A stretch of 64,000 nucleotides of DNA from Candidatus Heimdallarchaeota archaeon (GTDB taxonomy: Archaea > Asgardarchaeota > Heimdallarchaeia > Heimdallarchaeales > Heimdallarchaeaceae): contig JAHLWR010000003.1 of assembly GCA_019057815.1 (NCBI GenBank), positions 64,001 through 128,000 of the forward strand, in the 5' to 3' direction. A program made the position numbers and the translations under genes. Positions within the stretch are counted from its first letter, which is position 1; each line of letters begins with the position of its first letter. Under the pieces are notes generated by a model. That model saw only the letters and a program-made list of their open reading frames with translations. It ran no database searches and was not told the DNA's origin. This document shows, one piece after another, positions 22,301 through 51,710 of this stretch.

Positions 22301-23401
22301 AGCTGTTGAGGCTTTTCCAGATGTCATTAGTCCTCTTGGTGCAAGTTTACATGCAAATTGTAAAATTTGACTCTTAGCAACTCCTGGATCGCCTATTATT
22401 AATAAATTAGATTCACCTCTTTGTTTCATCCCATCGGACGCTACTCTACTTTCTCCACCAAAGAGAATGGTTGCTATGGCTTCTTTGATTGTCTCCATTC
22501 CGTATATCGAAGGTGCAACAGATCTTATTATCCTTCTATGAATACTTAAATCGCGGGATAATTCTATGATTTCTTTTTCTGTTTCTGGGTCTATATCGAT
22601 TTCTTCATACTCTTTCTGTTGGGAAGAAATATAATTGACATCCAACCAAAGGTCAAAAATAGCTAGTTTTCCTTTCTTCTTTGGAGTTGGAGCTTTCATT
22701 CTCAAAATACCACTAACAACAGCTCGATCTCCTGCTCTGACAGCATCGACTAAATCTCCCACTAATCTTGCAGAAAGGTTTCTAGGAATTTGACCTGCTG
22801 GGAGTGTTTCAGGTCGTTCCTGAACTGTTATTGTCTGTAGATCTTTGTATGTAGATTCCTCTGAATTGAGTTTAAAGAAACCTTTCTTTCCACAGCTTGG
22901 ATTAACACAGATATGTGGTTCCATATACATACCTCCTATTTGAGGGACATAATTAATTTCACCGCAGCTCAAACACTGAAAAGAACCTTCAATAAGTAAA
23001 GGTTTGACAACACTCTGTCTAAGAACAATGCCTTCTACAGATATTAGTTTCCCTAAATGCACATTTCTAACCCTTCTCAAATCAACTTGATCAGGAATAT
23101 TTGAAAAACGAACAACAAATGTTTCTTCACCTGTTGCATAAATTGGGTCTTCTATGGTTAATACTTCCTTTAATGCTCCATTAGCTTCTTTGAGAATCTC
23201 TTCAGGATTCTCTCTTAATTGTCTAGCTGATTCTGGGTCGTATCGAAGAAGATCATCATAACTTACAAAAAGTGACGTTAAACCTTCTAAAACCATTTTT
23301 TGAATTTGTTCTGTATATACTCTTCTTCCTTTATCATCCATATATCCTTGAAAAAAATCAGTAAACCTATCTATAGGCGTAGATTGCATGTCGATGTGCA
23401 T
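19376..23401 (-). CDS. mcm: MCM replicative helicase (intein-containing)
   Basis: Zn finger, GDPGVAKS, AAGL|intein|TAAV, IDEFDKM, AANP, SRFD. Start placed at ATG 23401. Confidence 0.97.
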   Translation of the reverse strand: MHIDMQSTPIDRFTDFFQGYMDDKGRRVYTEQIQKMVLEGLTSLFVSYDDLLRYDPESARQLRENPEEILKEANGALKEVLTIEDPIYATGEETFVVRFSNIPDQVDLRRVRNVHLGKLISVEGIVLRQSVVKPLLIEGSFQCLSCGEINYVPQIGGMYMEPHICVNPSCGKKGFFKLNSEESTYKDLQTITVQERPETLPAGQIPRNLSARLVGDLVDAVRAGDRAVVSGILRMKAPTPKKKGKLAIFDLWLDVNYISSQQKEYEEIDIDPETEKEIIELSRDLSIHRRIIRSVAPSIYGMETIKEAIATILFGGESRVASDGMKQRGESNLLIIGDPGVAKSQILQFACKLAPRGLMTSGKASTAAGLCVSGDSRILLHNQIKPISEIVEQEFESGDILYYNEQMEYVENSSNENLAVHSKNLHLDKQPISRFWKIKPPKSLIRITSRTGKQLVITPQTSLLSITKDEGVVWKHASILTEGDRVATTRKLPIITRKEVPISYEIIEIYKGTITLSSVEDKVATIIEELKHSTSYTIKDIEKILKVTESTISNWQDKSKRGSISFRQFGNLCKLANKDLLNELPDILELQIKKGQTIFLPKTLDEEWFYMLGLLMGDGRVSIDKRTEGYGGVTIGLSNTQQEILDTFEQFFKKLGFTISKTKETQSRPAEYRIWSKLLYHIFNYFGLTLAPKSSTIAPIWDILFYPEIYLKNLLQGLYDSDGWITVRKNSSSHIGISTTSKKLANFIQDALSTLNIASFRRVRKPKTSIKKDGTKITGKLEKYEIAFSNNEDFKVFREFVGFRHSSKMEKLDEICEKTRQKHRNLDNIPQIFSMVNELKIFYNYSSRDLTGYHGAFSKDNFDKAISQKRLKEILEKIDTNWLRHRIKLPFSVRSTLFSEINKKLERKEIEKETGLNYDNIYDFFMRKNRDISIQIKIIIKLKKLENIVLPLEITKYIDNVIEKIKEKHKYLQKRYELLKTLANSDVLWDEIAQIEEFENTEEYVYDLSIPETHNFIVNGFVTHNTAAVIRDQDTGEFTLEAGALVLGDRGVVAIDEFDKMNKVDRSSIHEAMEQQSISIAKAGIIAQLNARTAIIAAANPRFGRYEPSRSPGENINLSSTILSRFDLIFIIKDEPEVEFDTKMARHILELRRGHLLEEAEPPISMELLRKYISYSKQHVHPVLTDEAMERIEKYYLELRKESDGLEIAITPRYLEALVRLSESQARMALKNDVTIDHVEAAIRLLKTSLEQAGKDPISGKVTVDYMVSGMTSVSRSKMDKILDIIKDEITKSKYNYITMQKLKEIAKERDIEEDFVIKVIEQLQKSGQIFTPKEGRISYT
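20327..22291 (-). mobile_element. 655-aa intein in MCM with LAGLIDADG homing endonuclease
   Basis: Begins CVSGDS after AAGL and ends VYDL...HNFIVNGFVTHN before Thr+1; LAGLIDADG blocks LGLLMGDG and LQGLYDSDG. Confidence 0.95.
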
Positions 23402-23542
23402 TTTTTCCAACCTTAATTCTACAACTTTCCTTAGTTTATTAGTTTTACTTTGTACTGACAAAGCTTTATGTTTAATAAAATATACTGAAAATTAGTATAA
23501 AAACTACTCATCAGAACAAAAAGAACATAAATTAAGAGATGG

Positions 23543-24898
23543 ATGTTGACTAAAATGACTTACACTAATACTCACTTAGCCTTACAAGGAATACTGATGT
23601 GGATTCTTTTATCAAAAAAATCTAAAGAATATTACAAAGAGCATAGATGGGAGTTTCTTTTAGTTAATTTATTTGCAATTTTACCTGATATAGATCTTCT
23701 GTTCGGTCTTCACCGTTCATATACTCATTCACTAATTCTGCCACTAGCTATTCTCTTATGTTGTTTAACGGTAGGGAAGATAGGCGGAGGATTCTCGAAA
23801 ATAAGTGAGAAGGGGTTAAGGATTATCCGATTTATTAAGTTAGCTTGCTATATGTATTTGCTTCATATTGTTCTTGATATTGGTTGGGGACCTGTAATGT
23901 TTTTCTGGCCATTAGATACTAATTATTATGATTTATCGGTGTTTTTAAGGCTTGAAAACGTTAAGTGGTTATTTCTACCGATGACTTTTATCGGTTTAAT
24001 ACCATCGTGGAAAGTTTATACTTATTCAGAGGGACATAGTCAGTTTTTCATCAATTTAAGTCAAGAAGAAAGACAGTCGATTTATGGTCAGTATTTGGAT
24101 TTTAAAATAGAGTATTTTATTTTTCATGTAGTCATTTTAATAGCTTGGATTATAGTCATTTTGCTCCCTGTATTTAAAAGGAAACGGCAAAAAGAAAAAT
24201 CAAATTTTACTACAAATTTAGTTAAGGGCTTCAAACAGATTACAAGAGAGACAACTCTTGTTGGAGTATTAATACTAGCATTAGGTCTAATTATAGGTCC
24301 TTCGATAGGCAGAAGTTATAGTGTATCACATATAGTGAATATAGATTACGTTTCAAGTAATACTCTTTTTGATCCAACATTGGGAGTCATTGTAGATAGG
24401 GGAGTATATGAAAACACAACATTAAGCTATAAATGTAAAACAGGATTAGTAGACTACAATGCATCTGTTATGTTTGTAGAAAAAGAAACGTTCTATAATT
24501 TCTTCAATTCGTTTTCTAATATAAGCTCTGAATATCAAGCTGGAAATATATCCTATACAGAGTTAATTGTCTCATATTCAGTTCTAGTAGATGGTGTAAA
24601 AAACGCAAGTAACGAAGTTTATCAATTAATTGGGGAACAGAACCAAATTGGCTTAAATTTTACTTATGATTCTTCTTCAGAAGAAAGTACACTCTATTTC
24701 TTAGCTCTTATCGATGAATGGAATTGGACAGAATCGTATGTATATAGATGTACGTTAACTATATCACACACATTAGACAGGAGTATAGCTCAGATTGAAG
24801 GTGCTGTCCTAGTTTCTTTGGCGTGTGTAATAATCTTATTAGACCAATCCTTTAGTGTTATAAGAATACGTAAAAAAATAGATGAAAAAATAAGTTAA
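23543..24898 (+). CDS. Membrane metal-dependent hydrolase (YdjM-like) with extracytoplasmic C-terminal domain
   Basis: TH, LPDID, HRSYTHS, H..LD motifs; several TM segments. Confidence 0.75.
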   Translation: MLTKMTYTNTHLALQGILMWILLSKKSKEYYKEHRWEFLLVNLFAILPDIDLLFGLHRSYTHSLILPLAILLCCLTVGKIGGGFSKISEKGLRIIRFIKLACYMYLLHIVLDIGWGPVMFFWPLDTNYYDLSVFLRLENVKWLFLPMTFIGLIPSWKVYTYSEGHSQFFINLSQEERQSIYGQYLDFKIEYFIFHVVILIAWIIVILLPVFKRKRQKEKSNFTTNLVKGFKQITRETTLVGVLILALGLIIGPSIGRSYSVSHIVNIDYVSSNTLFDPTLGVIVDRGVYENTTLSYKCKTGLVDYNASVMFVEKETFYNFFNSFSNISSEYQAGNISYTELIVSYSVLVDGVKNASNEVYQLIGEQNQIGLNFTYDSSSEESTLYFLALIDEWNWTESYVYRCTLTISHTLDRSIAQIEGAVLVSLACVIILLDQSFSVIRIRKKIDEKIS

Positions 24899-25902
24899 GA
24901 GGCCATTTCTGTTGTCAATTCTACTAGGTCTGTATTTTCATTTAATTCTCTCAAAATTACGTTTGATAATATAGCTATTTCATCTACAAAAGGCATCCTT
25001 CTATAGGTTCTAAAATAAATTACTCGGAAATCTTTTGCTTTTTTGATAAAGGGAAGAGGGTTCTTACCTGCTGTTCTTTCTAAATCGCTGATAAGATAAA
25101 TTATACGTTCAGGAGCTGATACCTGTTCTAACTCATCAAGTGCCAGTTCAAGAGCTTCAGAAATGTTAGTTTTTCCTCTACTTTCTAAATCAAGGATTTT
25201 TCTAACTATCTCATTAGGATGAGTTGCTTCAGCCATTTTCTTGAGTAATTGAGCTTCTGAATCAAACCCTATGATTGCCAAATTGTCTCTTTTAACTGTC
25301 AAAGAGAGTACTGAAGCAGTTAAAACTATTTGATGTATATGTTGTAAAACACTAAGACTTTTGTCTATACATATAACAATGCTACGTTTTCTTTTTTCAG
25401 GTTCTCGAACAACTATATTATCATAAGTGGGCAGAATGTTACCACTACTTAACAACCGTTGCATAGTCATTTCGAGATCCCATTGATCTCCAGGTTCATA
25501 ATTCTTAAAACGAGCTACAGATGAAGCTATTCCTTTAAGGTAGATGAGCTTAGCTTTTTCCGTTATAAATGGTATAAGTTTATCAAGAATTTCCTTGCGA
25601 ATTTTAAAACTCAAATGTTTTTTTGTGAGAGAATAAAGTTGTATCAGATCCTCTTCAGATATTTTTTCAAGGATTACATTATCAATATCCATTTCATTTA
25701 ATGTCTTAGCGACAAAATTGGGATAATTAGTTGCAATTAATCTCAACCCTTCCAAATTTCTAGTTTCTGCTGCTTTTTGAGTCAGTTCAGCTATACGTGC
25801 CATATCTTCTTTGTAATGCCCTAGTTCTAATGAGATATCATTAACTAACATACGAGCTTCTATATTTGAAGGAAAGTGTAACAACGGTTCATTCTCTATC
25901 AT
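24895..25902 (-). CDS. VWA domain protein (MoxR partner)
   Basis: MIDAS DKSLS...T...SD; directly downstream of a MoxR ATPase. Confidence 0.85.
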   Translation of the reverse strand: MIENEPLLHFPSNIEARMLVNDISLELGHYKEDMARIAELTQKAAETRNLEGLRLIATNYPNFVAKTLNEMDIDNVILEKISEEDLIQLYSLTKKHLSFKIRKEILDKLIPFITEKAKLIYLKGIASSVARFKNYEPGDQWDLEMTMQRLLSSGNILPTYDNIVVREPEKRKRSIVICIDKSLSVLQHIHQIVLTASVLSLTVKRDNLAIIGFDSEAQLLKKMAEATHPNEIVRKILDLESRGKTNISEALELALDELEQVSAPERIIYLISDLERTAGKNPLPFIKKAKDFRVIYFRTYRRMPFVDEIAILSNVILRELNENTDLVELTTEMAS

Positions 25903-25922
25903 TTGGTTGATAGAGTCACCTT

Positions 25923-26810
25923 TTATCCTTTTTTTCTTATTATACGCTCATCTTCATATGTAGAAAGAATTTTAGAAACAATTTCTTCGAGAACTGTTTG
26001 TTCAGATTTTTGACTCGTTGTAGTACATCTGACTTTACGTGAGTGTACAGCAATAACATGCGAAATCAATATATTTTCATCTATATCTTGATTTTGAGGA
26101 TGTAATTCAACTAATTGAATAGCTCCTCTTACAGTAGAAGAGATATCAAGTTCAGGGTGGTTAATTGTGGTTTGAACTATATCGCACGAGATTTGAATAA
26201 GAAGATCATCACTTGAACTAGTTCGAAGTTTAACAATTTCTATCATCTCTTCTCTAGATTGGTGATTTACGTTTATCCATATGCAACGATCATAAAACGC
26301 TCTAGGGAGAGGATTCGTGGCTACTGTGTCCTTTGGATTAAAAGTGAATATGGGTATGAAACCTACTTCAGCTTTGATTGTACCCAGTCTGGGAATTGTG
26401 ATTAATCTTTCATCCAAAGCTGATAATGCAGCGTTTATGGTCTCAGAAGGAGCTCGATTGGTTTCATTGAAGAAGAAAATACCCCCTTTTTCCATTGCTT
26501 CAGTTAAAGGACCAGGAATAAAACTTTCTTTAGAAAAACCTTTCTCGAGAACTAATGGTGGATCATACCAGCCTTTTAATTTTATGGCTGTAAGATTATC
26601 ATCTCCATCAACACGAATGAAAGGACGTTCTAAACAATCAGAGACAGCTTTTGCCATTTCAGTTTTACCAGTTCCTATGGGACCTTCAATAATTATTGGG
26701 AGATTTTTCTCAATAGCTCTAAACATTAAACGAAGCTCTTCGCGACGACCAATTATAAGAGTAAAAACTTTTTCCAATGAGTCGTCTAAAGACATACTAG
26801 AATTGGTCAT
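25923..26810 (-). CDS. MoxR-family AAA+ ATPase
   Basis: GPIGTGKT, FIPGPL..AM, NE.NR, TFNP, DR. Start uncertain (26810 or 26795). Confidence 0.88.
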   Translation of the reverse strand: MTNSSMSLDDSLEKVFTLIIGRREELRLMFRAIEKNLPIIIEGPIGTGKTEMAKAVSDCLERPFIRVDGDDNLTAIKLKGWYDPPLVLEKGFSKESFIPGPLTEAMEKGGIFFFNETNRAPSETINAALSALDERLITIPRLGTIKAEVGFIPIFTFNPKDTVATNPLPRAFYDRCIWINVNHQSREEMIEIVKLRTSSSDDLLIQISCDIVQTTINHPELDISSTVRGAIQLVELHPQNQDIDENILISHVIAVHSRKVRCTTTSQKSEQTVLEEIVSKILSTYEDERIIRKKG

Positions 26811-26829
26811 TACTAGAGGAACATAGAAC

Positions 26830-26862
26830 AAAAATAAAACTCTTGTCGTTTAAGCTGAAAAA
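26830..26862 (+). repeat. 33-bp direct repeat, copy A (AAAAATAAAACTCTTGTCGTTTAAGCTGAAAAA)
   Basis: Exact match at 28271-28303; the 12-bp core AATAAAACTCTT also occurs at 29505-29516. Confidence 0.95.
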
Positions 26863-26870
26863 GAAAGAAG

Positions 26871-26922
26871 AAAGAAAAAGAAAGGAAGGTTAGTAATTTT
26901 TAGCGGATTTTTCAGGATTGAC
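26871..26922 (-). repeat. Displaced copy of the MFS gene 3' end plus U-rich downstream tract
   Basis: 26890-26922 matches 29549-29581 at 31/33 nt (VNPEKSAKNY* vs VKPEKSAKNY*); similarity extends into the flanking AAAGAAAAAGAAAGGA. Confidence 0.92.
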
Positions 26923-27116
26923 AGATAGAGAGAATAATAAGAAGTGAGACGATAATAAACATAACAATATCAACAGTAGATGAAAAAGAGGAGTTAATAG
27001 AAAGGGTAAAGCTAGCAGAAGAATATCAAGAGGAAGGAGGAAAAGTGGCTTTGAGGGTAGTAACATTTGCGTTCAAAGAAAGAGAAGAAATAATCAAACT
27101 AAGCCATAAAAACTAG
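26922..27116 (+). pseudogene. Start-less ORF fragment, possibly the C-terminal part of a PD-(D/E)XK-like domain
   Basis: 64 open codons (QIERIIRSETIINITISTVDEKEELIERVKLAEEYQEEGGKVALRVVTFAF...) beginning at the repeat edge; the family guess is weak. Confidence 0.3.
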
Positions 27117-27129
27117 ATTCTTCATATAA

Positions 27130-28008
27130 CTATTTCATTTTTTTACCACAATTCGAACAGAATTTAACTGAATCTCTATGTTTAGAACCACAGTTTATAC
27201 AAAATTTAGAATTAGTATCCTCCTTAAAAGTGTCTTGGTGAGGATGGAGTGTTTGAGAAAAAGAATTTTGTTTTCCTGTTTTTATTTCATTAAAATCGTT
27301 AGATGTTCGATAGATACCAAGTAAGAATAAACCATAGTATATAAAACTAGTAACATATGTGAGTATATAATAAGTAAACTGAGAAGTATTAAAGCTCCAG
27401 TTACTAAATATTGTGTTACTAAGACTATTTTGGAGGATATTAATGAAAAGAATATAGATTTGAGAATAGAGGAGAAACCTATCAGCTCGGTTGTCGATAA
27501 TTTGCTTTTCTTCCATCTCCGCAAATAAATCCTTCATGAACCAAAAAGCAAATATAAAAGGCACAGGAGTAATACAGATTAAAATGTCATAAACAAGACC
27601 CATTCTAAGGATGCTAAAAAGCATTGTTATGAACTCAAAAGTAGCAGCAAAAATCAAGGAAATAGTTATCTTATTTGATTTAAACTCTAGCTCTGGGAAT
27701 GCTTCTTCAAGTTTGTTAAAATCAGAAGCTAATAAATAGAAAAGAATGAACAGTGTAGCATTGATGAAATATACAGCGTAGAATATATAGAAATAAATGT
27801 TGTTAATTGAAGTAAATTCAGGAGAAGTAGGTTGAACAAAAGATTTAGTGCTAACAATCTGATAAAGACGAATGATAAACTGAATGAGAGTTCTGGAAAA
27901 GGTTATAATAAGTATGATCCCAATTGTGTTAAGATGTCTTTTGAAGTTTCTTTTAGCTATTGACAAGAGATCAAGAGGTACATGTGTAGGGTGATACATA
28001 CTAATCAA
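27130..28008 (-). CDS. Multi-pass membrane protein with C-terminal zinc ribbon
   Basis: About 6 TM segments, then FCINCG...FCSNCG. Confidence 0.85.
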   Translation of the reverse strand: MISMYHPTHVPLDLLSIAKRNFKRHLNTIGIILIITFSRTLIQFIIRLYQIVSTKSFVQPTSPEFTSINNIYFYIFYAVYFINATLFILFYLLASDFNKLEEAFPELEFKSNKITISLIFAATFEFITMLFSILRMGLVYDILICITPVPFIFAFWFMKDLFAEMEEKQIIDNRADRFLLYSQIYILFINILQNSLSNTIFSNWSFNTSQFTYYILTYVTSFIYYGLFLLGIYRTSNDFNEIKTGKQNSFSQTLHPHQDTFKEDTNSKFCINCGSKHRDSVKFCSNCGKKMK

Positions 28009-28197
28009 CTTACAATTAGAAAAAGTGAACTATTTAAGCTTATTTAACGATTTTTTGAGTTTTCTTAATGTGCAATAGGTAGTTAACAGTAATACTCATC
28101 AAAGTATCCTTCCACTTCAATATTAATAAATTCTTACTGATTCGAAATTTTCTTTGAACAACAACTTTGTTGTCTTTTTATGTCCCTTTTACTATAT

Positions 28198-28274
28198 TGA
28201 AGTATGAAAAAGCAACAGCTGAAACAGTGGATATTACTATGAATATCATCCCAAAGGATTCTAACATAAGAAAA
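28198..28274 (-). repeat. 77-bp diverged internal fragment of the MFS gene
   Basis: Matches 29995-30071 with 6 mismatches (FLMLESFGMIFIVISTVSAVAFSYF vs FLMSETFGMIFIVISTVSAVAFSYF). Confidence 0.93.
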
Positions 28275-28303
28275 ATAAAACTCTTGTCGTTTAAGCTGAA
28301 AAA
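28271..28303 (+). repeat. 33-bp direct repeat, copy B
   Basis: Identical to 26830-26862; offset 1441 bp. Confidence 0.95.
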
Positions 28304-28413
28304 AGATAACAAGAAAGAAAAAAGAGAGAGTATACTACATACAATCTTAATTATTACCTGTTTATTGAGAAACTATTAAAAGAAATAGAAACTAGAGAAT
28401 AACATCGAAGTAA

Positions 28414-28674
28414 TTATCTTACTTCTCCTGGAGGGATTGGTTTATTATGGCTACCTACTCTTTGTAAATATTTTCCAGAGTTTGTACAATGATGGTGTTT
28501 ACTAAATCTAGGAACAAGAACACAAAGTATACCTAAATAAGTTGATGTAATTATTGTGTGAAATTCAGGTGTAAATGGAAGTAAAATTCTGTCTCTAGCA
28601 AGATTAACAATTTGATTTTAAATTTTATCTCTTTGCTTATAATCCAAAGGATATACTTCTTTGTTGTGGTCCAT
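28414..28674 (-). pseudogene. Schlafen/AlbA_2 domain remnant
   Basis: Manual translation MDHNKEVYPLDYKQRDKI*NQIVNLARDRILLPFTPEF...ILCVLVPRFSKHHHCTNSGKYLQRVGSHNKPIPPGEVR*. It has an internal TAA, and the VP...H...G.Y..R.GS.N.P...E pattern fits the AlbA_2 C-terminal half. Confidence 0.7.
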
Positions 28675-28722
28675 ACTTGAGTATCGAGTGTTTTTTATAC
28701 AAACTGAAGTCTACTTTGTATT

Positions 28723-29463
28723 ATGGATGAAGAGATTACCCAAGTATCTAAGTTTCTTTTAGAATTCAATACATATTTGAATATATCATCAATCATATCA
28801 ATAATGGAATTTGAAGGTATTAAACTTGAAATTGAAAAAATTGAGACTTATCCAACTACTTTAACTGTACAGAATGAAGAACTCCAACGAGCTTTCGATA
28901 CCTATAATAAAACTTTGACCATAGAAGGCTATATAAAATATAAGAATAGGTTTGAATTGATTCATCTAAATACATTATTAGAAGCATATCTCTTTAATTG
29001 TTGCAAATATCATATAGAACAGCATAAAGATATTCTAGATTGTACTAAAATATTATTTAAAGATCTTAGAACAAAAGATACTGAAACAATAATTGATGAA
29101 AAAATTGAGAAATATCTTAATGATGCAATAATGTATGGAGATTACACAGATATCTTTGAAAAGATAAAAAGAAAACTGAAATTGAATCAAATTGAAAGAA
29201 TTCTTTCTGATGAGGTGGTTAGAGAATTAAATGAATTGAGTGCCAAACGAAATTTAGTTTTGCACAGAAATGGAAGAATCGATAGAAAATATATACAAAA
29301 GATACACGATGATAATTCAGAAATTGGAGATAAACTACAAGTAGACAGCGAGTATATAAAACATATCAGATTAATAGTTATGACTTTTGCTATTGATTTT
29401 GACAATATTATTTGTGAATTGTACCCTAATCTAAAAACAAGTTTAACATATTATTATACTTGA
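28723..29463 (+). CDS. Putative HEPN-domain protein
   Basis: Helical protein with LLEAYL and the R-x4-H motif RNLVLH followed by NG. Confidence 0.65.
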   Translation: MDEEITQVSKFLLEFNTYLNISSIISIMEFEGIKLEIEKIETYPTTLTVQNEELQRAFDTYNKTLTIEGYIKYKNRFELIHLNTLLEAYLFNCCKYHIEQHKDILDCTKILFKDLRTKDTETIIDEKIEKYLNDAIMYGDYTDIFEKIKRKLKLNQIERILSDEVVRELNELSAKRNLVLHRNGRIDRKYIQKIHDDNSEIGDKLQVDSEYIKHIRLIVMTFAIDFDNIICELYPNLKTSLTYYYT

Positions 29464-29548
29464 TGAATTTCAATAAGCTTTTCTATTAAGCCTAGAAAAG
29501 ATACAATAAAACTCTTAGAATCTAAAAGAAAAGAAAAAGAAAGGAGTT

Positions 29549-30275
29549 TTAGTAATTTTTAGCAGATTTTTCAGGCTTGACCATAATTATTACCCCGAGT
29601 CCTATGACCATCATTATTCCGATAATCAACATAGCCCAACCATATGTTTTGTAGTTCCATTTATCATAAAAGACAATGAAAGCAAGACTCCATATTATTG
29701 GGCCTACAGCTGCAGAAACTTTACCGGATAACTTGGAAAAACCAAAATATTCGCCAAATTTTTCCTTAGGAGCTAATGCAGCAACCATAGCTCTCTGAGC
29801 AACCCATGTACCACCTAAAGCAGGTCCAGCGAGTACACCCATGAGAATTATCATGATAAAAGGGAAATTGAAACCAGTGTCTATAGGAGCCCAAATGAAA
29901 ATACCTAAGATTCCAAGAGCTAGTGCTACAAACCAAAGGATTCCAACTAAAATGAAAGCATTCTTAGCTCCTTTTTTATCAGCAAAGACACCGATGAAAT
30001 ATGAAAAAGCAACAGCTGAAACGGTGGATATTACTATGAATATCATACCAAAGGTTTCAGACATAAGAAAACCGTCGCGAATTAAAGGGAACATATAAAT
30101 CACTATCACATTCGCAACATCAACAAAGAGGAAATATCCGATAATAAAGATAAACATCTCTCTATGACGAGTAATCTCTTTAAAAGTACGTCCAAGACTC
30201 TTGAAAGTATCCTTTATTAGAACACCAGCAGAAGGTCTGTCTCCTTTTTTCTGTCTTTCTTTGACAAAGATGAAT
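29549..30275 (-). pseudogene. 5'-truncated MFS transporter (UMF1/ATG22-like), C-terminal half only
   Basis: About 6 TMs, G..ADKKGAK, GEYFGF..LSGK.SA..GP. Upstream of FIFVKER the sequence is the antisense of another gene fragment. Confidence 0.75.
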
Positions 30276-30620
30276 TCTACCCAAAATGTTGACTTTGTAA
30301 CAATGGATTTGGAAAATTTCATCAAGTTCAATTCGACTTTTAATGAATCTTCATCGGAGGAATTCAATTATATTAGCAATTTTTCTGAATTGAATACAAC
30401 ATCGATTTCATTTGATTTATTATTTGAAGAAGAAACTAGACTCTTTTTCATTATCGAAAATGCTGAATTAATCTTAGGTGGAATAAATGGTACCGATAAT
30501 TGTGATATATCTCTTGTTTTGACATCTGAAGAGGAAAGTGATTATGTTTTTGGCATAATTATTGGTGTTATAATTCTCTTATTCATAGGTTTAGCCGTCT
30601 ATTTAAGGAAGAGAAAATAA
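30270..30620 (+). pseudogene. C-terminal fragment of a membrane-anchored surface glycoprotein
   Basis: Six N-x-S/T sequons, C-terminal TM plus RKRK tail, no signal peptide; abuts the truncated MFS gene head-to-head. Confidence 0.6.
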
Positions 30621-30657
30621 ATTTTTTTCAACATTCTTTTTTGATTTTTTCAAGATT

Positions 30658-31710
30658 TTAAAGAATCCAATAATCTTTTTGAGCTTTTTTTACTAAATTA
30701 ATCATATCTATAGTGTGTTCAGTTATATTTTCTATTTTTACATCGTCACACAAAGAAGATTTTTCACCTAAAATCCCTTTTAGGTATTTCTCGCTGACCG
30801 TTGCTAGCTTTTTCAAATAGTAACCTCCTTCTAGAACGTTTACTATTTTTCCACCAGTTAATTTTTTTGCTGTTTCTTGAATCATGTAACCTGCAGCTTG
30901 GAATGCTTCTGCTGTGATGTTTAAAATCCCTGCAGGGTCACCCTTCAATGCATCAAATCCAATTGAAACAAGAACAATTTCGGGCTTATATTGTTCCACT
31001 ATTTGTAAAGCTGTTTTCAAAGCGTAAAGCCAATCAACATTTTCAGTATTTGGTAGAAGAGGTATATTTACTGTGAATCCTTTTCCTTCTTTTATTCCCA
31101 CTTCTGAAGGGTATCCTGATCCTGGATATGAGTATTTAGGATGAGCATGTAATGACAAATAAAGAACATCCTTTCTGTGATAGAATATGTGAGCAGTACC
31201 ATTACCAAAATGATGATCAATATCTAATATAGCTATTTTCTTGATATTTCTTTCACTAATTAGCCATTCAGCAGCAATAGCGATGTTATTAAAAAAGCAG
31301 AAACCTCCACAAGAATTTACTTCAGCGTGATGTCCCGGTGGTCGAACTAATGCAAAACTTGTTTTTGATATACCATCAACTACCACTCTAGTTGCTTTTA
31401 TTGTTCCTCCAACAGCTAACTTAGCTGTAGTGAACGAATGCTCATTCATGGAAGTATCAAGAGATACCATACCTCCTCCTAGTTCTGAAACTCTTTTAAT
31501 ACGATAAACAAGATCCGGAACATGAACTCTGAGTATCTCATCCTCTTCAACTAATTCAGGGTCATCGATTTTAATTGTTAGTGAACTTTCAGATTTCAGT
31601 TTCTCTACTCCCTCAAGTATAGGATTTAGCCTTTCTGGACACTCTGGGTGTAAAGTATCCATTTTATGATCCTTGTAACGTTCTGAGTAAATGACTATAA
31701 GATCATACAT
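30658..31710 (-). CDS. Histone deacetylase family protein
   Basis: HPE.PER, RPPGHHA, GFC.FNN, D.D.H.GNGT, GFD...DP, LEGGY. Confidence 0.93.
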   Translation of the reverse strand: MYDLIVIYSERYKDHKMDTLHPECPERLNPILEGVEKLKSESSLTIKIDDPELVEEDEILRVHVPDLVYRIKRVSELGGGMVSLDTSMNEHSFTTAKLAVGGTIKATRVVVDGISKTSFALVRPPGHHAEVNSCGGFCFFNNIAIAAEWLISERNIKKIAILDIDHHFGNGTAHIFYHRKDVLYLSLHAHPKYSYPGSGYPSEVGIKEGKGFTVNIPLLPNTENVDWLYALKTALQIVEQYKPEIVLVSIGFDALKGDPAGILNITAEAFQAAGYMIQETAKKLTGGKIVNVLEGGYYLKKLATVSEKYLKGILGEKSSLCDDVKIENITEHTIDMINLVKKAQKDYWIL

Positions 31711-31863
31711 TTAGTTTAACTAGGTCATAGAACAATTAATCTTTTCGTATTAATCTATCAGCAGAACATTTTGTTTGTTAATTGAGAATAAAAATAGAAA
31801 CTACAAACTTATATATGGTTTTTTTGAAATCAGAATTATTGTAATATCGATGGAGTTAGAAAA

Positions 31864-32400
31864 ATGAGTTTCTTGGTTGATGTTGGACTAGCGCTACTCT
31901 TTGCTGGACCTATCTTCTTTTCCAATGCAATTCCTTCAGTGCTTGGAGGAGGTTATCCTATAGACTCTTATAAGAATTTCTTCGATGGAAAGAGAATTCT
32001 TGGCGATCACAAAACACTGCAAGGATTAATTAATGGAATACTTTTTGGTTTTTTCACAGGTGTGATTATCTGGTATACCGTTGGTGAAACTATGAATGCA
32101 AGGTATGAACATCTTGGTTTCCAATACCCATTCTGGATTGGCATATTGTTTGGTTGGGGGGCTAACTTTGGTGATTTGTTAGGGTCATTCATAAAACGAA
32201 GAATAAATATAAAATCTGGTGGTAAATTTCCTGTTTTTGATCAACTTGGTTACATGGTTTTTGGTATTCTCTGGGCATGGCCTGTGTATAGAGCTATTCC
32301 ATGGCAATTCTGGGTTTCTTTGTTGATTTTTGCTCCCTTACTTCATATATTATCTAATCTTTTTGCTTATGCTATTAAAGCAAAAGACGTACCATGGTAA
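31864..32400 (+). CDS. carS: CDP-archaeol synthase
   Basis: N..P...GG..PID....F.DGKRILGD.KT..G, GDL.GSFIKRR, DQL, terminal K.VPW. Confidence 0.93.
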   Translation: MSFLVDVGLALLFAGPIFFSNAIPSVLGGGYPIDSYKNFFDGKRILGDHKTLQGLINGILFGFFTGVIIWYTVGETMNARYEHLGFQYPFWIGILFGWGANFGDLLGSFIKRRINIKSGGKFPVFDQLGYMVFGILWAWPVYRAIPWQFWVSLLIFAPLLHILSNLFAYAIKAKDVPW

Positions 32401-32507
32401 ACTACTAGTTCATATAGAAAAAGAGCTATTTAATACACTGTCGATAAAGTCAAATTTATAAAGGAAATTACGTATAGAAAATTGTACTAACTTAAAAGTC
32501 GTTTTCA

Positions 32508-32831
32508 ATGAAAGTAGATTCAGATAGAAAGGATTGCATTCTAACTTGTCGTTCCTTTATGTGCAGCAAACGAATGTTGAAAATAAAAAGAGATGGAGAA
32601 AGTAAAAGCTTTATTTGTCGCTTGGATGGATATGAATGTTTAGGATACAGCTGCAGTTATGCTGAGTGTAGAGACAGATTACTTAGTGACGATGGAAGAT
32701 GTTTAAAACCTGTTCAGAAGGATCAGAAACATCTTAGGGTAAAGAATCTTGCATTTGAGCAACACAATAATAAGTTTCAACAAAATCTAGATGATAGAAT
32801 TCAAAAGAAAATAAGCAGAAAGTTGAAATAA
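32508..32831 (+). CDS. Small Cys-rich hypothetical protein
   Basis: Eight cysteines in the N-terminal 65 aa (C...C..F.C...C.....C....C.YA.C......G.C). Confidence 0.65.
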   Translation: MKVDSDRKDCILTCRSFMCSKRMLKIKRDGESKSFICRLDGYECLGYSCSYAECRDRLLSDDGRCLKPVQKDQKHLRVKNLAFEQHNNKFQQNLDDRIQKKISRKLK

Positions 32832-32896
32832 GGCTATGACTAAATCTTAAATATCTATAATGTAAAAGGTCTATAAGAATAAGATGTGATGTAAAA

Positions 32897-33676
32897 ATGA
32901 TTCCTAATAGTTCTGGAACAGGTCAAAAAAAGCTTTTAACTTTCGGAATACCAAGTCTTGATGAAATTTTAGGGGGAGGAATACCTCCTGGATCAAATGT
33001 TCTAATAGAAGATGCAATAGGTGCTGAAGCGGAGCCTTTTGTTCTACAGTTTCTTGCTGAAGGCCTTAAAGCAGGTGAATACGGTTATATTATGTCGACA
33101 GAACACCCATACGACTATTATGTCGACATATTGAATGGGATAGGTGTTAACCCTGATATGCTATCAGCAACTGGGAGATTGCAATATATTGATGCTTTTA
33201 GCAACCCTTTTGGATATGCAGATAAGAGAGATTCACACCAACACACTGTAAACGATTTAAGCCAACCAAGAGAAATTAACGAGACAATAAGAAGAGCGTT
33301 TTTACACGTCCAAAATCAAAAAATCATGAAAAGAGGTATAGTCTTATCACTTTCATCGATAATTTACGCATCCAACGAATCGAAAAATATCTTATTTTCT
33401 TTTCTACAAAATAGATTAGCAAGCAATAAAAATGATGGGTCTGTAACAATTTTCTTACTGCATTACGATGCTCATGAACCGTTATTGGTAAGAGCAATAG
33501 AACATAATTGTGATGCAACTATAAGAGTATTAAAAGCTAAAACAGATAATGATCGACCTATTACAGAAGTCCGAGTTGTTAATGTAAAAGGCAAACCTGA
33601 ATTAGTAGGAGAACCAGTACTTTTCGAGTTCATAAGTGGAAAAATCTTACCCTATTATGAAGGTGAAAAGTTCTAG
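32897..33676 (+). CDS. KaiC/RAD55-like RecA-fold protein with degenerate Walker motifs
   Basis: TFGIPSLDEILGGGIP.GS N-terminus; Walker A position reads DAIGAEAE and Walker B position reads IVLSLS. Confidence 0.85.
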   Translation: MIPNSSGTGQKKLLTFGIPSLDEILGGGIPPGSNVLIEDAIGAEAEPFVLQFLAEGLKAGEYGYIMSTEHPYDYYVDILNGIGVNPDMLSATGRLQYIDAFSNPFGYADKRDSHQHTVNDLSQPREINETIRRAFLHVQNQKIMKRGIVLSLSSIIYASNESKNILFSFLQNRLASNKNDGSVTIFLLHYDAHEPLLVRAIEHNCDATIRVLKAKTDNDRPITEVRVVNVKGKPELVGEPVLFEFISGKILPYYEGEKF

Positions 33677-33699
33677 ATAACTCTTCATCCTTTTTTTTG

Positions 33700-34302
33700 A
33701 TGGGAATTAAAGATAGGTTTAATAATCAATATGAAAAGAATAACACGAGAAACTTGATGTTTGATTACCTATTTAAAACGATAATTGTTGGAAATCCAGG
33801 AGTAGGGAAAACATCAATAACACTCCGATTTGCTACTGGAGTATTTAAATCAAGATATCTCCCAACAATAGGCGTAGAATTCTCAGTAAAAGATATTGAA
33901 GTGAAAGGACAGCACATAAAATTACAATTATGGGATACAGGAAGTCATGATCGTTTCTCTTATATTAGACCAATGTATTATAGAGGAAGTTATGGTGTTC
34001 TGGTAGTTTGTGATTTAGCAAATGAGCTGACACTTAAAGAACTCGATAAATGGTTCACAGAAGTGTACTCCAATACTGAGGAAGTGATACCAGCTATATT
34101 GATAGGTAATAAAGCTGATTTGGGTGATAAGCGCTTGATATCGACAGAAGAACTTTTGCAATATGCTTCAGAAAAGAAAGACGAGTACAAATTAGCTGAA
34201 ATACCAGTCTATGAGGTTTCAGCAAAATCAGGGCAAAATATTAATGATATTTACTATCGCTTAGCAGATTTAATGATTAAAAAATCTAATGAATCGGAAT
34301 AA
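33700..34302 (+). CDS. Rab-like small GTPase
   Basis: FDYLFK, GNPGVGKT, PTIGVEF, KLQLWDT, YYRGS, NKAD, SAK; no C-terminal Cys motif. Start may be the ATG at 33757. Confidence 0.93.
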   Translation: MGIKDRFNNQYEKNNTRNLMFDYLFKTIIVGNPGVGKTSITLRFATGVFKSRYLPTIGVEFSVKDIEVKGQHIKLQLWDTGSHDRFSYIRPMYYRGSYGVLVVCDLANELTLKELDKWFTEVYSNTEEVIPAILIGNKADLGDKRLISTEELLQYASEKKDEYKLAEIPVYEVSAKSGQNINDIYYRLADLMIKKSNESE

Positions 34303-51136: not shown

Positions 51137-51664
51137 ATGCCATATCCAGTAAGACTTGTAGATTACAAATCTGAATGGTCTGCTCATTTTAAGAAAGAAA
51201 AGGATTTAATTATGGATATAGTCTGTGTCAAAAACATTGTAGTTGAGCATATAGGCAGTACATCTATTCCAGGAATAAAAGCTAAATCGACGATAGATAT
51301 CTTAGTAGGTGTTCAAACGTTAGAGGAAGCAATGAAAATCATTCCAGATCTTGAAAAGATAGGATATGAGTACTTTCCTGAGTATGAAGAGCGGATTCCA
51401 GAGAGAAGATATTTGAGTAAAGGCGAAAAAGGGAAAAGATCTCATCATCTTCACATGTTTGATATCAAGAGCGATTTATGGAAAGAACATCTTCTTTTCA
51501 GAGAATATTTAAGAAAAAATAAAGAGAAAGCAAAGGAATATGAGAAATTAAAAGTGAATTTCGCAAAAAAGTATCACTCAAATAAGGAAGAGTATACAAG
51601 AGCTAAGGGTCCTTTTATCGAAAAAATGATTAGAGAAGCAAAATCCCAGATTCCTTCACTTTGA
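51137..51664 (+). CDS. GrpB family (nucleotidyltransferase-fold) protein
   Basis: EHIGSTSIPG..AK..IDI, HHLH, L.FR.YLR, Y..LK, YT.AK..FI. Confidence 0.92.
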   Translation: MPYPVRLVDYKSEWSAHFKKEKDLIMDIVCVKNIVVEHIGSTSIPGIKAKSTIDILVGVQTLEEAMKIIPDLEKIGYEYFPEYEERIPERRYLSKGEKGKRSHHLHMFDIKSDLWKEHLLFREYLRKNKEKAKEYEKLKVNFAKKYHSNKEEYTRAKGPFIEKMIREAKSQIPSL

Positions 51665-51710
51665 TCAAGATTTTCTCTACCACTAACTACTTTTTTAACT
51701 ACAAGGATTT
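51514..51710 (+). repeat. About 200-bp direct repeat, copy 1 (grpB 3' end plus downstream DNA)
   Basis: Matches 52955-53151 with scattered substitutions; offset 1441 bp. Confidence 0.95.

What the first reader, a model, noticed from the sequence alone, without database searches (positions are those of the whole stretch)
26830..29581. Cassette-like island bracketed by copies of an MFS gene's 3' end, carrying defence-type cargo
Seen: the last 33 bp of the MFS gene plus its downstream tract occur at both 26871-26922 and 29530-29581. A boundary motif starting AATAAAACTCTT occurs three times (26833, 28274, 29505) and divides the island into 1441-bp and 1231-bp units. Unit 1 holds an ORF fragment and a Zn-ribbon membrane protein; unit 2 holds a Schlafen remnant and a HEPN-motif gene. 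Established: integrative elements often duplicate the 3' end of their target gene. Inference: serial accretion of small cassettes at a fixed site with no recombinase in cis, i.e. a possible integron-like or homology-anchored defence-gene exchange locus.
Basis: partly seen in the sequence, partly recalled or inferred. Interest (0 to 1): 0.8.

Follow-up and report, generated by a model that had tools for sequence, protein, structure and literature searches.

The report
Patchwork accessory-gene islet behind MFS gene
A 2.7-kb strain-specific patch of accessory genes and gene fragments sits between two conserved genes of a Heimdall-group Asgard archaeon, and it looks stitched in stepwise by ordinary recombination that re-copied the neighbour's promoter and the transporter gene's tail, not by an integron-like machine.

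Summary
The repeats are real. The island (26,830-29,581) is absent from the only other genome of the genus, which has moxR, about 60 bp, then an intact 486-aa Atg22-like MFS gene.

The "boundary motif" is the moxR core promoter. It is conserved about 20-25 nt upstream of moxR in 15 of 17 family loci. It forms no attC-like hairpin and occurs as a long repeat nowhere else in the genome.

The island is a patchwork:
- an orphan MFS tail and a 77-bp internal MFS piece;
- a 171-bp piece of an unrelated repeated gene;
- an intact zinc-ribbon membrane gene;
- the last 86 codons of an AlbA_2/Schlafen gene;
- an intact gene with a conserved Rx4H (HEPN) motif.

Three junctions show 3-7-nt microhomology. 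The resident MFS tail (29,549-30,118) is a diverged, selection-shaped allele with a sharp breakpoint, which indicates import by homologous recombination.

Contigs from another metagenome fit a strain with unit 1 but not unit 2, so stepwise growth is plausible. No tyrosine recombinase is found in the assembly.

About 30 other genes in this genome carry similar orphan gene ends. Earlier unchecked notes of this scan report the same integrase-free pattern in other Asgard genomes.

Verdict: a real recombination-built islet. It is homology-anchored in part and not integron-like.

The parts
25923..26831 (-). moxR (AAA_5 / MoxR-type ATPase), first gene of a conserved moxR-VWA pair. The likely true start is the ATG at 26813.
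   Evidence: Pfam AAA_5 E 1.1e-18. Synteny YdjM-VWA-MoxR-MFS-HDAC across the family.
26830..26862 (-). Promoter copy A: the functional moxR core promoter (TATA/BRE-like AATAAAACTCTT read on the minus strand). It is an exact 33-nt repeat with copy B.
   Evidence: The motif A[AT]TAAAACT[CG]TT lies 20-25 nt from the moxR ATG in 15 of 17 family loci. Exact repeat shown.
26871..26922 (-). Orphan MFS tail: the last 33 nt of the ORF plus 19 nt downstream.
   Evidence: 52-nt repeat, 90% identical to 29530-29581. Contiguous with the MFS body in G001.
26920..27090 (+). 171-bp in-frame internal fragment of a 317-aa Cys-rich gene of unknown function. It joins the MFS tail at a GAC(A) microhomology.
   Evidence: 89% identical to C38:154174-154344 and C24:14068-14238, inside a 1.9-kb two-gene repeat.
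27130..28008 (-). Intact 292-aa multi-pass membrane protein with a C-terminal zinc ribbon (cargo of unit 1).
   Evidence: Pfam Zn_Ribbon_1 E 3.6e-7. The best homologue is 63% identical, in another genus and in a different context; the only G001 hit is a weak partial match over the C-terminal region (27% over residues 209-290, E 5e-5). No PADLOC hit.
28198..28274 (-). Orphan internal MFS fragment (equivalent to 29995-30071). It is fused to promoter copy B through an AAAA(A) microhomology.
   Evidence: 92% identical to the resident copy and 97% to the G001 MFS.
28271..28322 (-). Promoter copy B (33 nt exact) plus a diverged polypurine tract.
   Evidence: The Logan unitig of this 33-mer has twice the depth of its neighbours (85 against 43-45).
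28417..28674 (-). AlbA_2/Schlafen-like remnant: the last ~86 codons with one in-frame stop. About 230 N-terminal codons are missing.
   Evidence: 42% identity (E 1e-14) to residues 243-309 of a 320-aa paralogue, whose AlbA_2 domain scores E 1.5e-14. The remnant's own Pfam hit is only E 0.064.
28723..29463 (+). Intact 246-aa all-helical protein with an Rx4H motif: a candidate HEPN ribonuclease. It stands alone and is convergent with the MFS gene.
   Evidence: R176 and H181 are invariant in a 7-member alignment. The top VIA-align hits are HEPN proteins at Z 7.3-7.9. No Pfam, PADLOC or Foldseek hit. GC is 25% against 33-38% in the flanks.
29505..29548 (-). Promoter copy C: a diverged intergenic copy (12-mer plus polypurine tract, 13 nt shorter) directly downstream of the resident MFS stop.
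29549..30275 (-). Resident MFS (Atg22-like) C-terminal half. Positions 29549-30118 are a diverged allele; 30119-30275 are nearly identical to G001.
   Evidence: Pfam ATG22 profile 229-479 of 482. There are 93 nt differences, 66 of them at third codon positions, giving 57 synonymous and 21 non-synonymous codons. Only 1 difference lies right of 30118.
30270..30275 (.). Junction of a 1035-bp deletion (ATGAAT microhomology). The deletion removed the MFS N-terminal half, its promoter region and the start of the divergent 194-aa gene.
   Evidence: Contigs of related strains X3 and X5 still carry the deleted DNA.
30276..30620 (+). 3' remnant of the 194-aa secreted/membrane protein gene of G001.

Best explanation
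The island is not a machine. It is the accumulated scar of at least four ordinary recombination events at the junction between two conserved genes, moxR and an Atg22-like MFS transporter, in a Heimdall-group Asgard archaeon.

Inferred order of events:
1. A ~585-bp segment was duplicated in tandem by illegitimate recombination at an AAAA microhomology. The segment ran from the moxR TATA box to an internal point of the MFS gene. This produced promoter copy B fused to an orphan MFS 3' piece.
2. The middle of that dispensable orphan was replaced by foreign DNA: a 171-bp piece of another gene and a zinc-ribbon membrane gene. The replacement was again joined at microhomology. This state appears to exist in related strains.
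3. In the G000 lineage only, a ~1.8-kb fragment from a more distant relative came in. It carried a diverged MFS tail, its downstream intergenic copy (C) and the HEPN gene with the Schlafen remnant. One end recombined homologously inside the MFS gene at about 30118-30190. The other end joined in the polypurine tract of copy B. This resembles 'gene-tail displacement' or homology-facilitated illegitimate recombination.
4. A 1035-bp microhomology deletion then killed the MFS gene.

The shared 'boundary motif' is the moxR promoter, carried along because it lies in the duplicated or imported segments.

Status of each claim:
- Shown: the empty site, the fragments, the microhomologies, the breakpoint and the promoter identity.
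- Inferred: the order of events, the single-fragment import in step 3, and the enzymology.

On function, the HEPN-motif gene is most likely a stand-alone RNase of defence or toxin type. The Zn-ribbon membrane protein has unknown function.
For: - Empty site. G001 has moxR, ~60 bp, then an intact 486-aa MFS.
- Promoter identity. The motif is conserved at a fixed distance from moxR in 15 of 17 loci, as a single copy everywhere else.
- Fragments. The island holds a 77-bp internal MFS piece, a 52-nt MFS tail, a 171-bp piece of a 317-aa gene and a Schlafen C-terminal remnant.
- Microhomology at three junctions: AAAA(A), GAC(A) and ATGAAT.
- Homologous-recombination import. Identity to G001 is 72-89% over 29527-30126 and 99-100% over 30127-30275. 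The differences are mostly synonymous (57 against 21 codons), so the divergence arose in a working gene. The orphan 77-mer is G001-type at 97%.
- Stepwise states. Run X6, from another study, has a contig joining ...28303 plus 8 nt to 29530. It shows no depth over 28516-29017 but does hold unit-1 contigs. X3 lacks both units.
- Assembly. An independent Logan assembly of the source run tiles the locus with 0 differences, at depths 42.6, 45 and 43.6, with the 33-mer at 85.
- No site-specific machinery. No attC-like fold (z -1.0 to +1.3), no PF00589 in G000 or G001, and no tRNA or Rfam hit.
- Generality. Of 2831 ORFs, 20 have a 3'-end-only copy in direct orientation downstream and 11 have a 5'-end-only copy upstream. 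The opposite placements number 7 and 6, and inverted copies 4.
Against: - The left edges of copies B and C fall within about 4 nt of each other, at the A-run beside the TATA box. Two independent illegitimate events there are a mild coincidence. I found no significant evidence that the two junctions share an origin. I found only a marginal hint (z 3.1, one of 17 comparisons) that copy C extends into leader-like sequence.
- The stepwise states rest on short Logan contigs of mixed communities, not on reads from one genome.
- The donor of step 3 is unsampled.
- From the de Bruijn graph alone, unit 1 could also be a 1441-bp circle at equal depth.
- An integrase on an unassembled element cannot be excluded, since the assembly is 95% complete.
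Confidence: 0.6

Rival explanations
1. The island is a decayed tandem pair of site-specific integrative elements (CIME-like islets). They would have targeted the MFS 3' end or intergenic region through an integrase acting in trans or since lost. The repeated MFS tail and promoter copies would then be attL/attR-type sites.
For: - Direct repeats of 50-90 nt that include a gene's 3' end are the classic att topology.
- The units look discrete and seem to be present or absent independently.
- The cargo is accessory or defence-like.
- A paralogous HEPN gene on contig C22 is also bracketed by 52-nt copies of another gene's tail, with spacing 1230 against 1231 here.
- Six serine-recombinase genes exist elsewhere in the genome.
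Against: - No tyrosine recombinase in G000 or G001. The serine recombinases were not examined further, and none lies on this contig.
- attL and attR should share an identical core. Here the copies are 90% identical, and the MFS body next to one of them is diverged for 570 bp with a homologous-recombination-type breakpoint.
- Unit 1 is bounded on one side by an internal MFS piece, not by a tail.
- The junctions carry microhomology, and gene fragments sit inside the units.
- 5'-end orphans are also common genome-wide.
- The long motif occurs nowhere else in the genome, so there is no attP-bearing element.
Confidence: 0.2
2. The locus is a dedicated integron-like or promoter-anchored capture site. 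Each captured gene would be inserted at the edge of the moxR TATA box and receive its own promoter copy, through an unknown recombinase-independent or trans-acting site-specific process.
For: - Three promoter copies sit in the same orientation, with left edges within about 4 nt of each other.
- On the minus strand, each copy lies upstream of a cargo gene or former cargo gene. Copy B precedes the Zn-ribbon gene. Copy C precedes the former full-length Schlafen gene.
- Earlier unchecked notes of this scan describe similar integrase-free arrays in other Heimdall genomes.
Against: - No hairpin or other cassette-borne site.
- Copy C shares only 12 nt plus a polypurine run.
- The Zn-ribbon gene has its own upstream region, conserved with its homologue in another genus (homology reaches 28058).
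- In 15 other family loci the promoter is single-copy, even where the interval holds 1.6-3.8 kb of other genes.
- The right-hand insertion points differ.
- The fragments and microhomologies point to non-specific joining.
Confidence: 0.07
3. The island is an assembly artefact: a mis-join of strain haplotypes, or a small circle collapsed into the contig.
For: - The genome is a metagenome-assembled genome.
- Unit 1 is bounded on both sides by the same 33-mer. A k=31 graph therefore cannot place it uniquely.
Against: - The independent Logan unitigs match with 0 differences.
- One unitig spans 28274-32000, so unit 2, copy C, the MFS, the deletion junction and the HDAC gene are all linked.
- Depths are equal (42.6, 45, 43.6), and the repeat unitig has exactly double depth.
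- A second run of the same study holds all the sampled words.
- A 33-bp repeat is shorter than a read.
Confidence: 0.03

Closest known systems
Insertion-duplication by single-crossover (Campbell-type) integration and homology-facilitated illegitimate recombination (one homologous anchor, the other end joined at microhomology). From my own knowledge of bacterial transformation genetics; not checked in a paper here.
   Same: Foreign DNA is flanked by direct copies of local sequence. One end shows a clean homologous crossover inside a gene (about 30118-30190) and the other ends sit at 3-7-nt microhomologies. No dedicated recombinase is involved.
   Different: Here at least two rounds stacked at one junction. 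An Asgard archaeon is involved, and its recombination enzymology is untested. No circular intermediate or donor has been seen.
C-terminal (gene-tail) displacement with orphan modules, as at Rhs/CDI/T6SS effector loci.
   Same: A diverged incoming 3' end plus a downstream gene replaces the resident tail by recombination in the conserved gene body. The old tail is left as an orphan further downstream.
   Different: The MFS tail is not a polymorphic toxin domain, and the cargo is not an immunity gene for it. No selective logic links the tail to the cargo.
Tandem genomic islands at tRNA/tmRNA or gene 3' ends made by tyrosine integrases, including integrase-less cis-mobilisable remnants (CIMEs). 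Known Heimdallarchaeum mobile elements integrate at tRNA genes (PMC8813620).
   Same: An array of small islets separated by partial copies of the target's 3' end, with accessory or defence cargo.
   Different: There is no integrase in this genome and no identical core. The target is a protein-coding gene plus a promoter. One boundary is an internal gene piece, and a long diverged homologous tract lies next to one boundary.
Integron gene-cassette arrays (from my own knowledge).
   Same: Single-gene units in tandem next to a promoter, with no recombinase inside the units.
   Different: There is no IntI, attI or attC hairpin. The repeats are copies of the host promoter and gene tail, gene fragments sit inside the units, and the insertion points are not identical.
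Microhomology-mediated template switching (FoSTeS/MMBIR). From my own knowledge; an earlier follow-up of this scan cited it for the grpB locus in this window.
   Same: Templated insertions are flanked by a duplication of the local segment, with 3-7-nt microhomology junctions and short pieces of unlinked loci (the 171-bp fragment).
   Different: Copies made this way start identical and derive from DNA in the same cell. Here the MFS tail is a diverged allele and the Zn-ribbon gene has no second copy in the genome.

Membership tests
Integron cassette array | Cassette-borne attC site: imperfect inverted repeats that fold as a hairpin. | tested here: not met
   DNA folds of all three boundary regions, on both strands, give z-scores of -1.0 to +1.3 against shuffles.
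Integron cassette array | An IntI-type tyrosine recombinase with an adjacent attI site. | tested here: not met
   No PF00589 match in G000 (95% complete) or G001, while the control genomes all match. No recombinase is seen among the ORFs of 22000-34000.
Integron cassette array | Insertion of every cassette at one identical nucleotide position. | tested here: not met
   The break for unit 1 lies 33 nt inside the MFS ORF. The break for unit 2 lies in the polypurine tract downstream of the stop.
Site-specific integrative island / CIME | attL and attR share an identical core derived from the target's 3' end. | tested here: inconclusive
   There is a 52-nt tail repeat, but it is only 90% identical. 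This could be decay, or two different alleles.
Site-specific integrative island / CIME | A cognate integrase or an attP-bearing element somewhere in the genome or population. | tested here: not met
   No PF00589 match. Copies A and B (about 60 nt including the motif) have no match outside this locus, and only short weak (about 82%) matches to the polypurine tract beside copy C occur elsewhere. Six resolvase-domain genes exist on other contigs and were not examined further.
Site-specific integrative island / CIME | Excised circular form and precise empty site. | not testable with these tools
   Only Logan contigs were available, not raw reads. Empty-site-like forms exist in G001 and in X3/X6.
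Homologous-recombination import (allelic replacement / gene-tail displacement) | An abrupt change of divergence inside a conserved gene, with substitutions shaped by purifying selection. | tested here: met
   Identity is 99-100% right of about 30127 and 72-89% to the left. Of 93 differences, 66 are at third codon positions, giving 57 synonymous against 21 non-synonymous codons.
Homologous-recombination import (allelic replacement / gene-tail displacement) | The displaced native tail persists downstream as an orphan of the native allele type. | tested here: met
   The orphan 77-mer is 97% identical to G001 against 92% to the resident copy. The 52-nt tail itself is uninformative: 6, 4 and 5 mismatches in the three comparisons.
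HEPN superfamily | A conserved Rx4-6H motif in the last long helix. | tested here: met
   R176 and H181 are invariant in the 7-sequence alignment, within I-R-N-x-x-V-H-x-N-G.
HEPN superfamily | The four-helix HEPN fold. | tested here: inconclusive
   The AlphaFold2 model has pLDDT 73. Eight of the top ten VIA-align hits are HEPN or HEPN-like proteins at Z 6.9-7.9 (sacsin HEPN: rmsd 3.4 over 129 residues), but that Z range is not decisive for helical bundles. Foldseek and Pfam found nothing.
AlbA_2 / Schlafen-type domain (PF04326) | Significant match to the domain profile. | tested here: inconclusive
   The remnant alone scores E 0.064, below the cut-off. It is 42% identical (E 1e-14) to the matching part of a paralogue that passes at E 1.5e-14.
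Archaeal core promoter (BRE/TATA) of moxR | A conserved A/T-rich element at a fixed distance of about 25 nt upstream of the start of a leaderless gene. | tested here: met
   The motif is conserved in 15 of 17 loci, 20-25 nt from the ATG. Transcription itself was not tested.

The most novel reading that the evidence does not exclude
Heimdall-group Asgard archaea may routinely gain accessory and defence genes by an integrase-independent route. In this route, incoming DNA carrying a diverged copy of a resident gene end recombines and displaces the old end. The result is arrays of single-gene units separated by orphan gene tails or promoter copies.

This locus, with its intermediate states visible in other strains, would be a caught-in-the-act example. 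About 30 similar scars in the same genome would mark a lineage-wide mode of gene flow.

A stronger version is not excluded: that a specific but unrecognised factor targets A-rich promoter or terminator edges.
Probability: 0.25. Interest if true: 0.7.

Novelty: new member of a known kind. Interest (0 to 1): 0.4.

Why it matters
Asgard archaea are studied for how they exchange genes, and their described mobile elements rely on integrases at tRNA genes (PMC8813620).

This locus shows a different and simpler route. Accessory genes, including a probable HEPN nuclease, entered between two core genes through microhomology joins and one homologous crossover. The intermediate states are still detectable in other populations, and the price was a dead transporter gene.

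The pattern of gene-end orphans recurs about 30 times in this genome. Its direction bias fits insertion with duplication: 20 3' orphans lie downstream and 11 5' orphans lie upstream, against 13 in the opposite placements.

If this is general, such scars give a countable marker of recombinational gene gain in uncultured archaea. The finding also warns that repeat-bounded 'cassettes' in these genomes need not imply a recombinase.

Tried and rejected
- I stopped that step, fetched the loci and used references instead.
- **Empty metagenome scans.** Both JGI metagenome scans returned nothing: one with the HEPN protein and one with the 25-mer motif allowing one ambiguity.
- **Empty library searches.**
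  - PADLOC gave no hit for the HEPN or the Zn-ribbon protein.
  - Pfam gave nothing for the HEPN protein.
  - An HMM search against PDB sequences gave only chance ribosomal-protein hits.
  - Foldseek against the PDB gave nothing at E <= 0.001.
  - Rfam and tRNA scans of the locus were empty.
  - The sigma-70 and terminator scan was uninformative for an archaeon.
- **Idea that the junctions of copies B and C descend from one event.** This would require the left flank of C to be a decayed MFS internal piece. The local alignment scored no better than shuffles, so the idea is rejected. A hint that C's left flank resembles a moxR leader of one relative (z 3.1, 1 of 17 comparisons) is too weak to use.
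- **Idea that the interval is a family-wide cassette hotspot.** In genus g3 the interval is either 33-120 bp or holds a serine hydrolase, a second MFS and a 188-aa gene, with decayed remnants. That is ordinary gene loss with a single promoter copy.
- **Other repeat-bracketed loci as presence/absence polymorphisms.** Two (L052, L055) are shared with G001 and two are only partly so or are fragmented. They are therefore older scars, not active cassettes.
- **Equal 1441-bp spacing** of this unit and the grpB duplication. With several hundred repeat pairs listed genome-wide I treat it as coincidence.
- **Parts of the read laying stretch without cover** in X3, X5 and X6 are used only together with the bridging contig of X6.

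Full report
**Setting.** The window is G000:C48:64001-128000, from a 3.7-Mb, 48-contig, 95%-complete low-GC archaeal assembly. The two closed 3.1-3.3-Mb genomes in the same family fit the size I recall for the published Heimdallarchaeum genomes, but I did not check this. The gene order around the finding is YdjM-like, VWA, MoxR (minus strand), the island, MFS (minus strand), a small plus-strand ORF, then a histone-deacetylase-like gene. This order is conserved across the family.

**Observation.**
- The 52-nt repeat at 26871-26922 and 29530-29581 is 90% identical.
- The motif AATAAAACTCTT starts at 26833, 28274 and 29505.
- Copies A and B share an exact 33-mer. Copy C shares the 12-mer and the polypurine tract and is 13 nt shorter.
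- Sensitive blastn of the island against the whole genome finds copies A and B only in this locus. The bare 12-mer occurs 13 times in the genome, three of them here.

Two features were not in the finding:
- A 77-bp internal piece of the MFS gene (28198-28274) abuts copy B.
- The "MFS gene" is only a C-terminal half, matching Pfam ATG22 profile positions 229-479 of 482.

**The empty site.** G001 is the only other genome of the genus, about 94% identical in the flanks. It runs from moxR through about 60 bp directly into an intact 486-aa MFS gene. A divergent 194-aa gene and the deacetylase gene follow. Relative to G001, G000 has gained 2.66 kb and lost 1035 bp. The deletion removed the MFS N-terminal half and the start of the 194-aa gene, and its junction carries an ATGAAT microhomology.

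**What the boundary motif is.** In 15 of 17 moxR-bearing loci of the family, the element A[AT]TAAAACT[CG]TT lies 20-25 nt from the moxR start codon, while the rest of the spacer is not alignable between genera. Read on the moxR strand, it is an A/T-rich box preceded by a conserved purine-rich stretch. That is what an archaeal TATA/BRE core promoter of a leaderless gene looks like. This reading is an inference from position and conservation; no transcript data exist.
- The element is single-copy in every other locus, including those where the moxR-MFS interval holds 1.6-3.8 kb.
- It forms no hairpin.

**Content of the island.**

Unit 1:
- The orphan MFS tail is joined at a GAC(A) microhomology to a 171-bp in-frame fragment of a 317-aa Cys-rich gene.
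- The complete copies of that gene lie in a 1.9-kb two-gene repeat on contigs C38 and C24, and in G001. Both G000 copies sit next to defence-type genes: AlbA_2 plus an OLD-family nuclease, and AbiV-type HEPN plus a CAAX protease.
- Next comes an intact 292-aa membrane protein with a C-terminal zinc ribbon. Its nearest homologue is 63% identical and lies in another genus, in a different neighbourhood. G001 has only a weak partial hit.
- Then comes the 77-bp MFS piece, fused to promoter copy B over AAAA(A).

Unit 2:
- The last 86 codons of an AlbA_2/Schlafen-type gene, with one in-frame stop. The remnant is 42% identical to the matching part of a 320-aa paralogue whose domain is significant.
- An intact 246-aa gene on the other strand. 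It has no Pfam, PADLOC or Foldseek match.
- In an alignment of that gene with six homologues, R176 and H181 (Rx4H) are invariant.
- Its AlphaFold2 model (pLDDT 73) aligns best to HEPN proteins at Z 7.3-7.9. This is suggestive but not decisive for a helical bundle.
- Homologues are sporadic, in 8 of 31 family genomes.
- Unit 2 has 25-29% GC, against 33-38% in the flanking core genes.

**Evidence for homologous import.** The resident MFS half is mosaic against G001. It is 99-100% identical from about 30127 to 30275, but only 72-89% identical from 29527 to 30126.
- Of 93 differences, 66 are at third codon positions, giving 57 synonymous and 21 non-synonymous codons. Only one difference lies right of 30118, and the frame is open.
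- The divergence therefore arose in a functioning gene of a more distant relative, and entered by a crossover inside the MFS gene.
- The orphan 77-mer is 97% identical to G001 but 92% to the resident copy. The lineage therefore once carried the G001-type allele there.
- Copy C, the HEPN gene and the Schlafen remnant lie directly beyond this foreign tail and are unique to G000. The simplest reading is one imported fragment of about 1.8 kb, whose far end joined in the polypurine tract of copy B. This last step is inferred.

**Population snapshots.** Logan contigs of four runs were laid on 24500-32000.

The source run (X1) tiles the locus without a difference:
- One unitig ends in copy A.
- A 1468-bp unitig is exactly unit 1 between the two 33-mers (depth 45).
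- The 33-mer itself has depth 85.
- One unitig runs from 28274 past 32000 (depth 43.6).

So unit 2, copy C, the MFS half, the deletion junction and the deacetylase gene are physically linked. Unit 1 is present at single-copy depth. From the graph alone, a 1441-bp circle at equal depth cannot be excluded.

The other runs:
- X3 lacks both units and has the undeleted MFS, like G001.
- X5 and X6 come from other studies and are about 91-96% identical. Both hold Zn-ribbon gene DNA but show nothing over 28516-29017.
- An X6 contig joins the promoter copy through 8 nt straight into the MFS tail and body. Another X6 contig links the orphan tail, a shorter version of the 171-bp fragment and the region downstream of the Zn-ribbon gene.
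- X5 retains the DNA that is deleted in G000.

This fits the series: empty site, then unit 1, then unit 1 plus unit 2 plus the deletion. It rests on short contigs from mixed communities.

**Mechanism.** The island combines four features:
- direct copies of local sequence around each insert;
- 3-7-nt microhomologies at three junctions;
- short pieces of unlinked genes;
- one clean homologous breakpoint.

These are the signature of illegitimate plus homologous recombination, not of site-specific recombination. The relevant processes are tandem duplication or template switching, homology-facilitated illegitimate recombination, and gene-tail displacement.
- The junction of copy B with the internal MFS piece is exactly what a tandem duplication of the ~585-bp segment from the TATA box to that internal point would give.
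- No tyrosine recombinase is detectable in G000 or G001. In the family such genes are sporadic (15 of 31 genomes) and are missing even from one closed genome.
- Six resolvase-domain genes lie on other contigs and were not examined further.

One point remains unexplained. The left edges of copies B and C coincide within about 4 nt, at the A-run beside the TATA box. I could not show a common origin for the two junctions. An A-run is an easy microhomology partner in a 31%-GC genome, but a site preference is not excluded.

**Generality.** A k-mer scan and a crude census of 2831 ORFs gave these counts of partial gene-end copies within 15 kb:

| Copy type | Orientation | Position relative to the gene | Genes |
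|---|---|---|---|
| 3'-end only | direct | downstream | 20 (this MFS among them) |
| 5'-end only | direct | upstream | 11 |
| 3'-end only | direct | upstream | 7 |
| 5'-end only | direct | downstream | 6 |
| either end | inverted | either | 4 |

- Six inspected loci have 74-300-nt repeats, 87-95% identical, around one or two ordinary genes: an amino-acid kinase, an FAD oxidoreductase, an APH-type kinase, a nucleotidyltransferase, a NosD-like protein and a membrane protein.
- The grpB locus in this same window has a 197-nt repeat.
- Two of these loci are shared with G001, so they are stable scars.
- In the L057 locus, the orphan and the resident copy are both about equally distant from G001.
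- A paralogue of the HEPN gene on contig C22 is likewise bracketed by 52-nt copies of another gene's tail. Three contig ends fork at that tail, which suggests alternative cargo in the population.
- Because 5' ends and intergenic segments are affected as well as 3' ends, a tail-specific integrase system is unlikely. The process looks generic.
- Earlier unchecked notes of this scan describe the same integrase-free pattern in other Heimdall and Loki genomes.

**Comparison with known systems.**
- The locus fails the defining tests of an integron: no attC fold, no IntI, no single insertion point.
- It does not meet those of a tyrosine-integrase island: no integrase, no identical core, no attP.
- It meets the tests for homologous allelic import with a displaced orphan tail.
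- Known Heimdallarchaeum mobile elements integrate at tRNA genes with integrases (PMC8813620). This islet is of a different and simpler kind.

**Verdict.** The locus is a real, strain-variable, stepwise-built accessory-gene islet, anchored in part by homology, with partly defence-like cargo. It is not integron-like, and its "boundary motif" is the neighbour's promoter. It is a well-resolved new example of a known kind of recombination scar. Its moderate interest comes from the visible intermediates and from the genome-wide recurrence of such scars in an Asgard lineage.

Noticed in passing
window 51514-51710 and 52955-53151: A 197-nt direct repeat (95% identical) of the grpB 3' end brackets a 1.25-kb insert. 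Its start-to-start spacing is 1441 bp, the same as unit 1 here. I treat this as coincidence, given the several hundred repeat pairs listed genome-wide. G001 is fragmented at this locus.
   Followed up: partly
G000:C22:1-1282 (L049), with contig ends C7:69559-69648 and C16:189167-189263: A 265-aa paralogue of the HEPN-motif gene (30% identical) is bracketed by two 52-nt copies of the 3' end of another gene, with spacing 1230 against 1231 for unit 2. Three contig ends carry versions of that gene tail. Each is followed by different cargo: the HEPN paralogue, or one of two ORFs (330 and 440 aa) that look HNH-like by eye and were not searched. This suggests a second tail-delimited array with population variants.
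   Followed up: partly
G000:C38:152835-154772 and C24:13640-15578; G001:C112: A 1.9-kb two-gene repeat (a 234-aa protein and a 317-aa Cys-rich protein, neither with a Pfam match), 92% identical between the copies. In both G000 copies it lies next to defence-type genes: AlbA_2 plus an OLD-family nuclease, and AbiV-type HEPN plus a CAAX protease. It is sporadic in the family (4 of 31 genomes). It may be an undescribed mobile or defence-associated module.
   Followed up: partly
whole genome G000: In a crude census of 2831 ORFs, 20 genes have a 3'-end-only copy in direct orientation downstream within 15 kb, and 11 have a 5'-end-only copy upstream. The opposite placements number 7 and 6, and inverted copies only 4. 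Local insertion with duplication seems to be a common mode of rearrangement here.
   Followed up: partly
family-wide (31 genomes): Tyrosine recombinases (PF00589) are found in only 15 of 31 genomes of the family. None is found in either genome of this genus, and none in one closed genome, so no universal Xer-type recombinase is detectable with this search.
   Followed up: no
L012-L020 (genus g3 loci): In the sister genus, the moxR-MFS interval is either 33-120 bp or holds a 460-aa serine-hydrolase-like gene (beta-lactamase-like by eye, not searched), a second 410-aa MFS gene and a 188-aa gene. L018 and L020 keep decayed C-terminal remnants of the second MFS gene. The variation there is differential gene loss.
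   Followed up: partly
L029:4399-4953 (G022:C81) and L033:802-1344 (G012:C3): A ~180-aa protein next to the Zn-ribbon homologue in one genome appears homologous, by eye from the N-terminal sequences, to the neighbour of a HEPN homologue in another genome. The two cargo genes of this island may therefore belong to the same travelling accessory-gene pool.
   Followed up: no
window 27010-28013 in run X6: Summed contig depth over the Zn-ribbon gene is 10-15, against 4-6 in the flanks. The unit may be present in more than one organism or copy in that sample.
   Followed up: no
window 19376-23461: A 1361-aa ORF that reads by eye like an MCM helicase gene interrupted by a large intein with a homing-endonuclease-like insert. 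No domain search was run on it.
   Followed up: no
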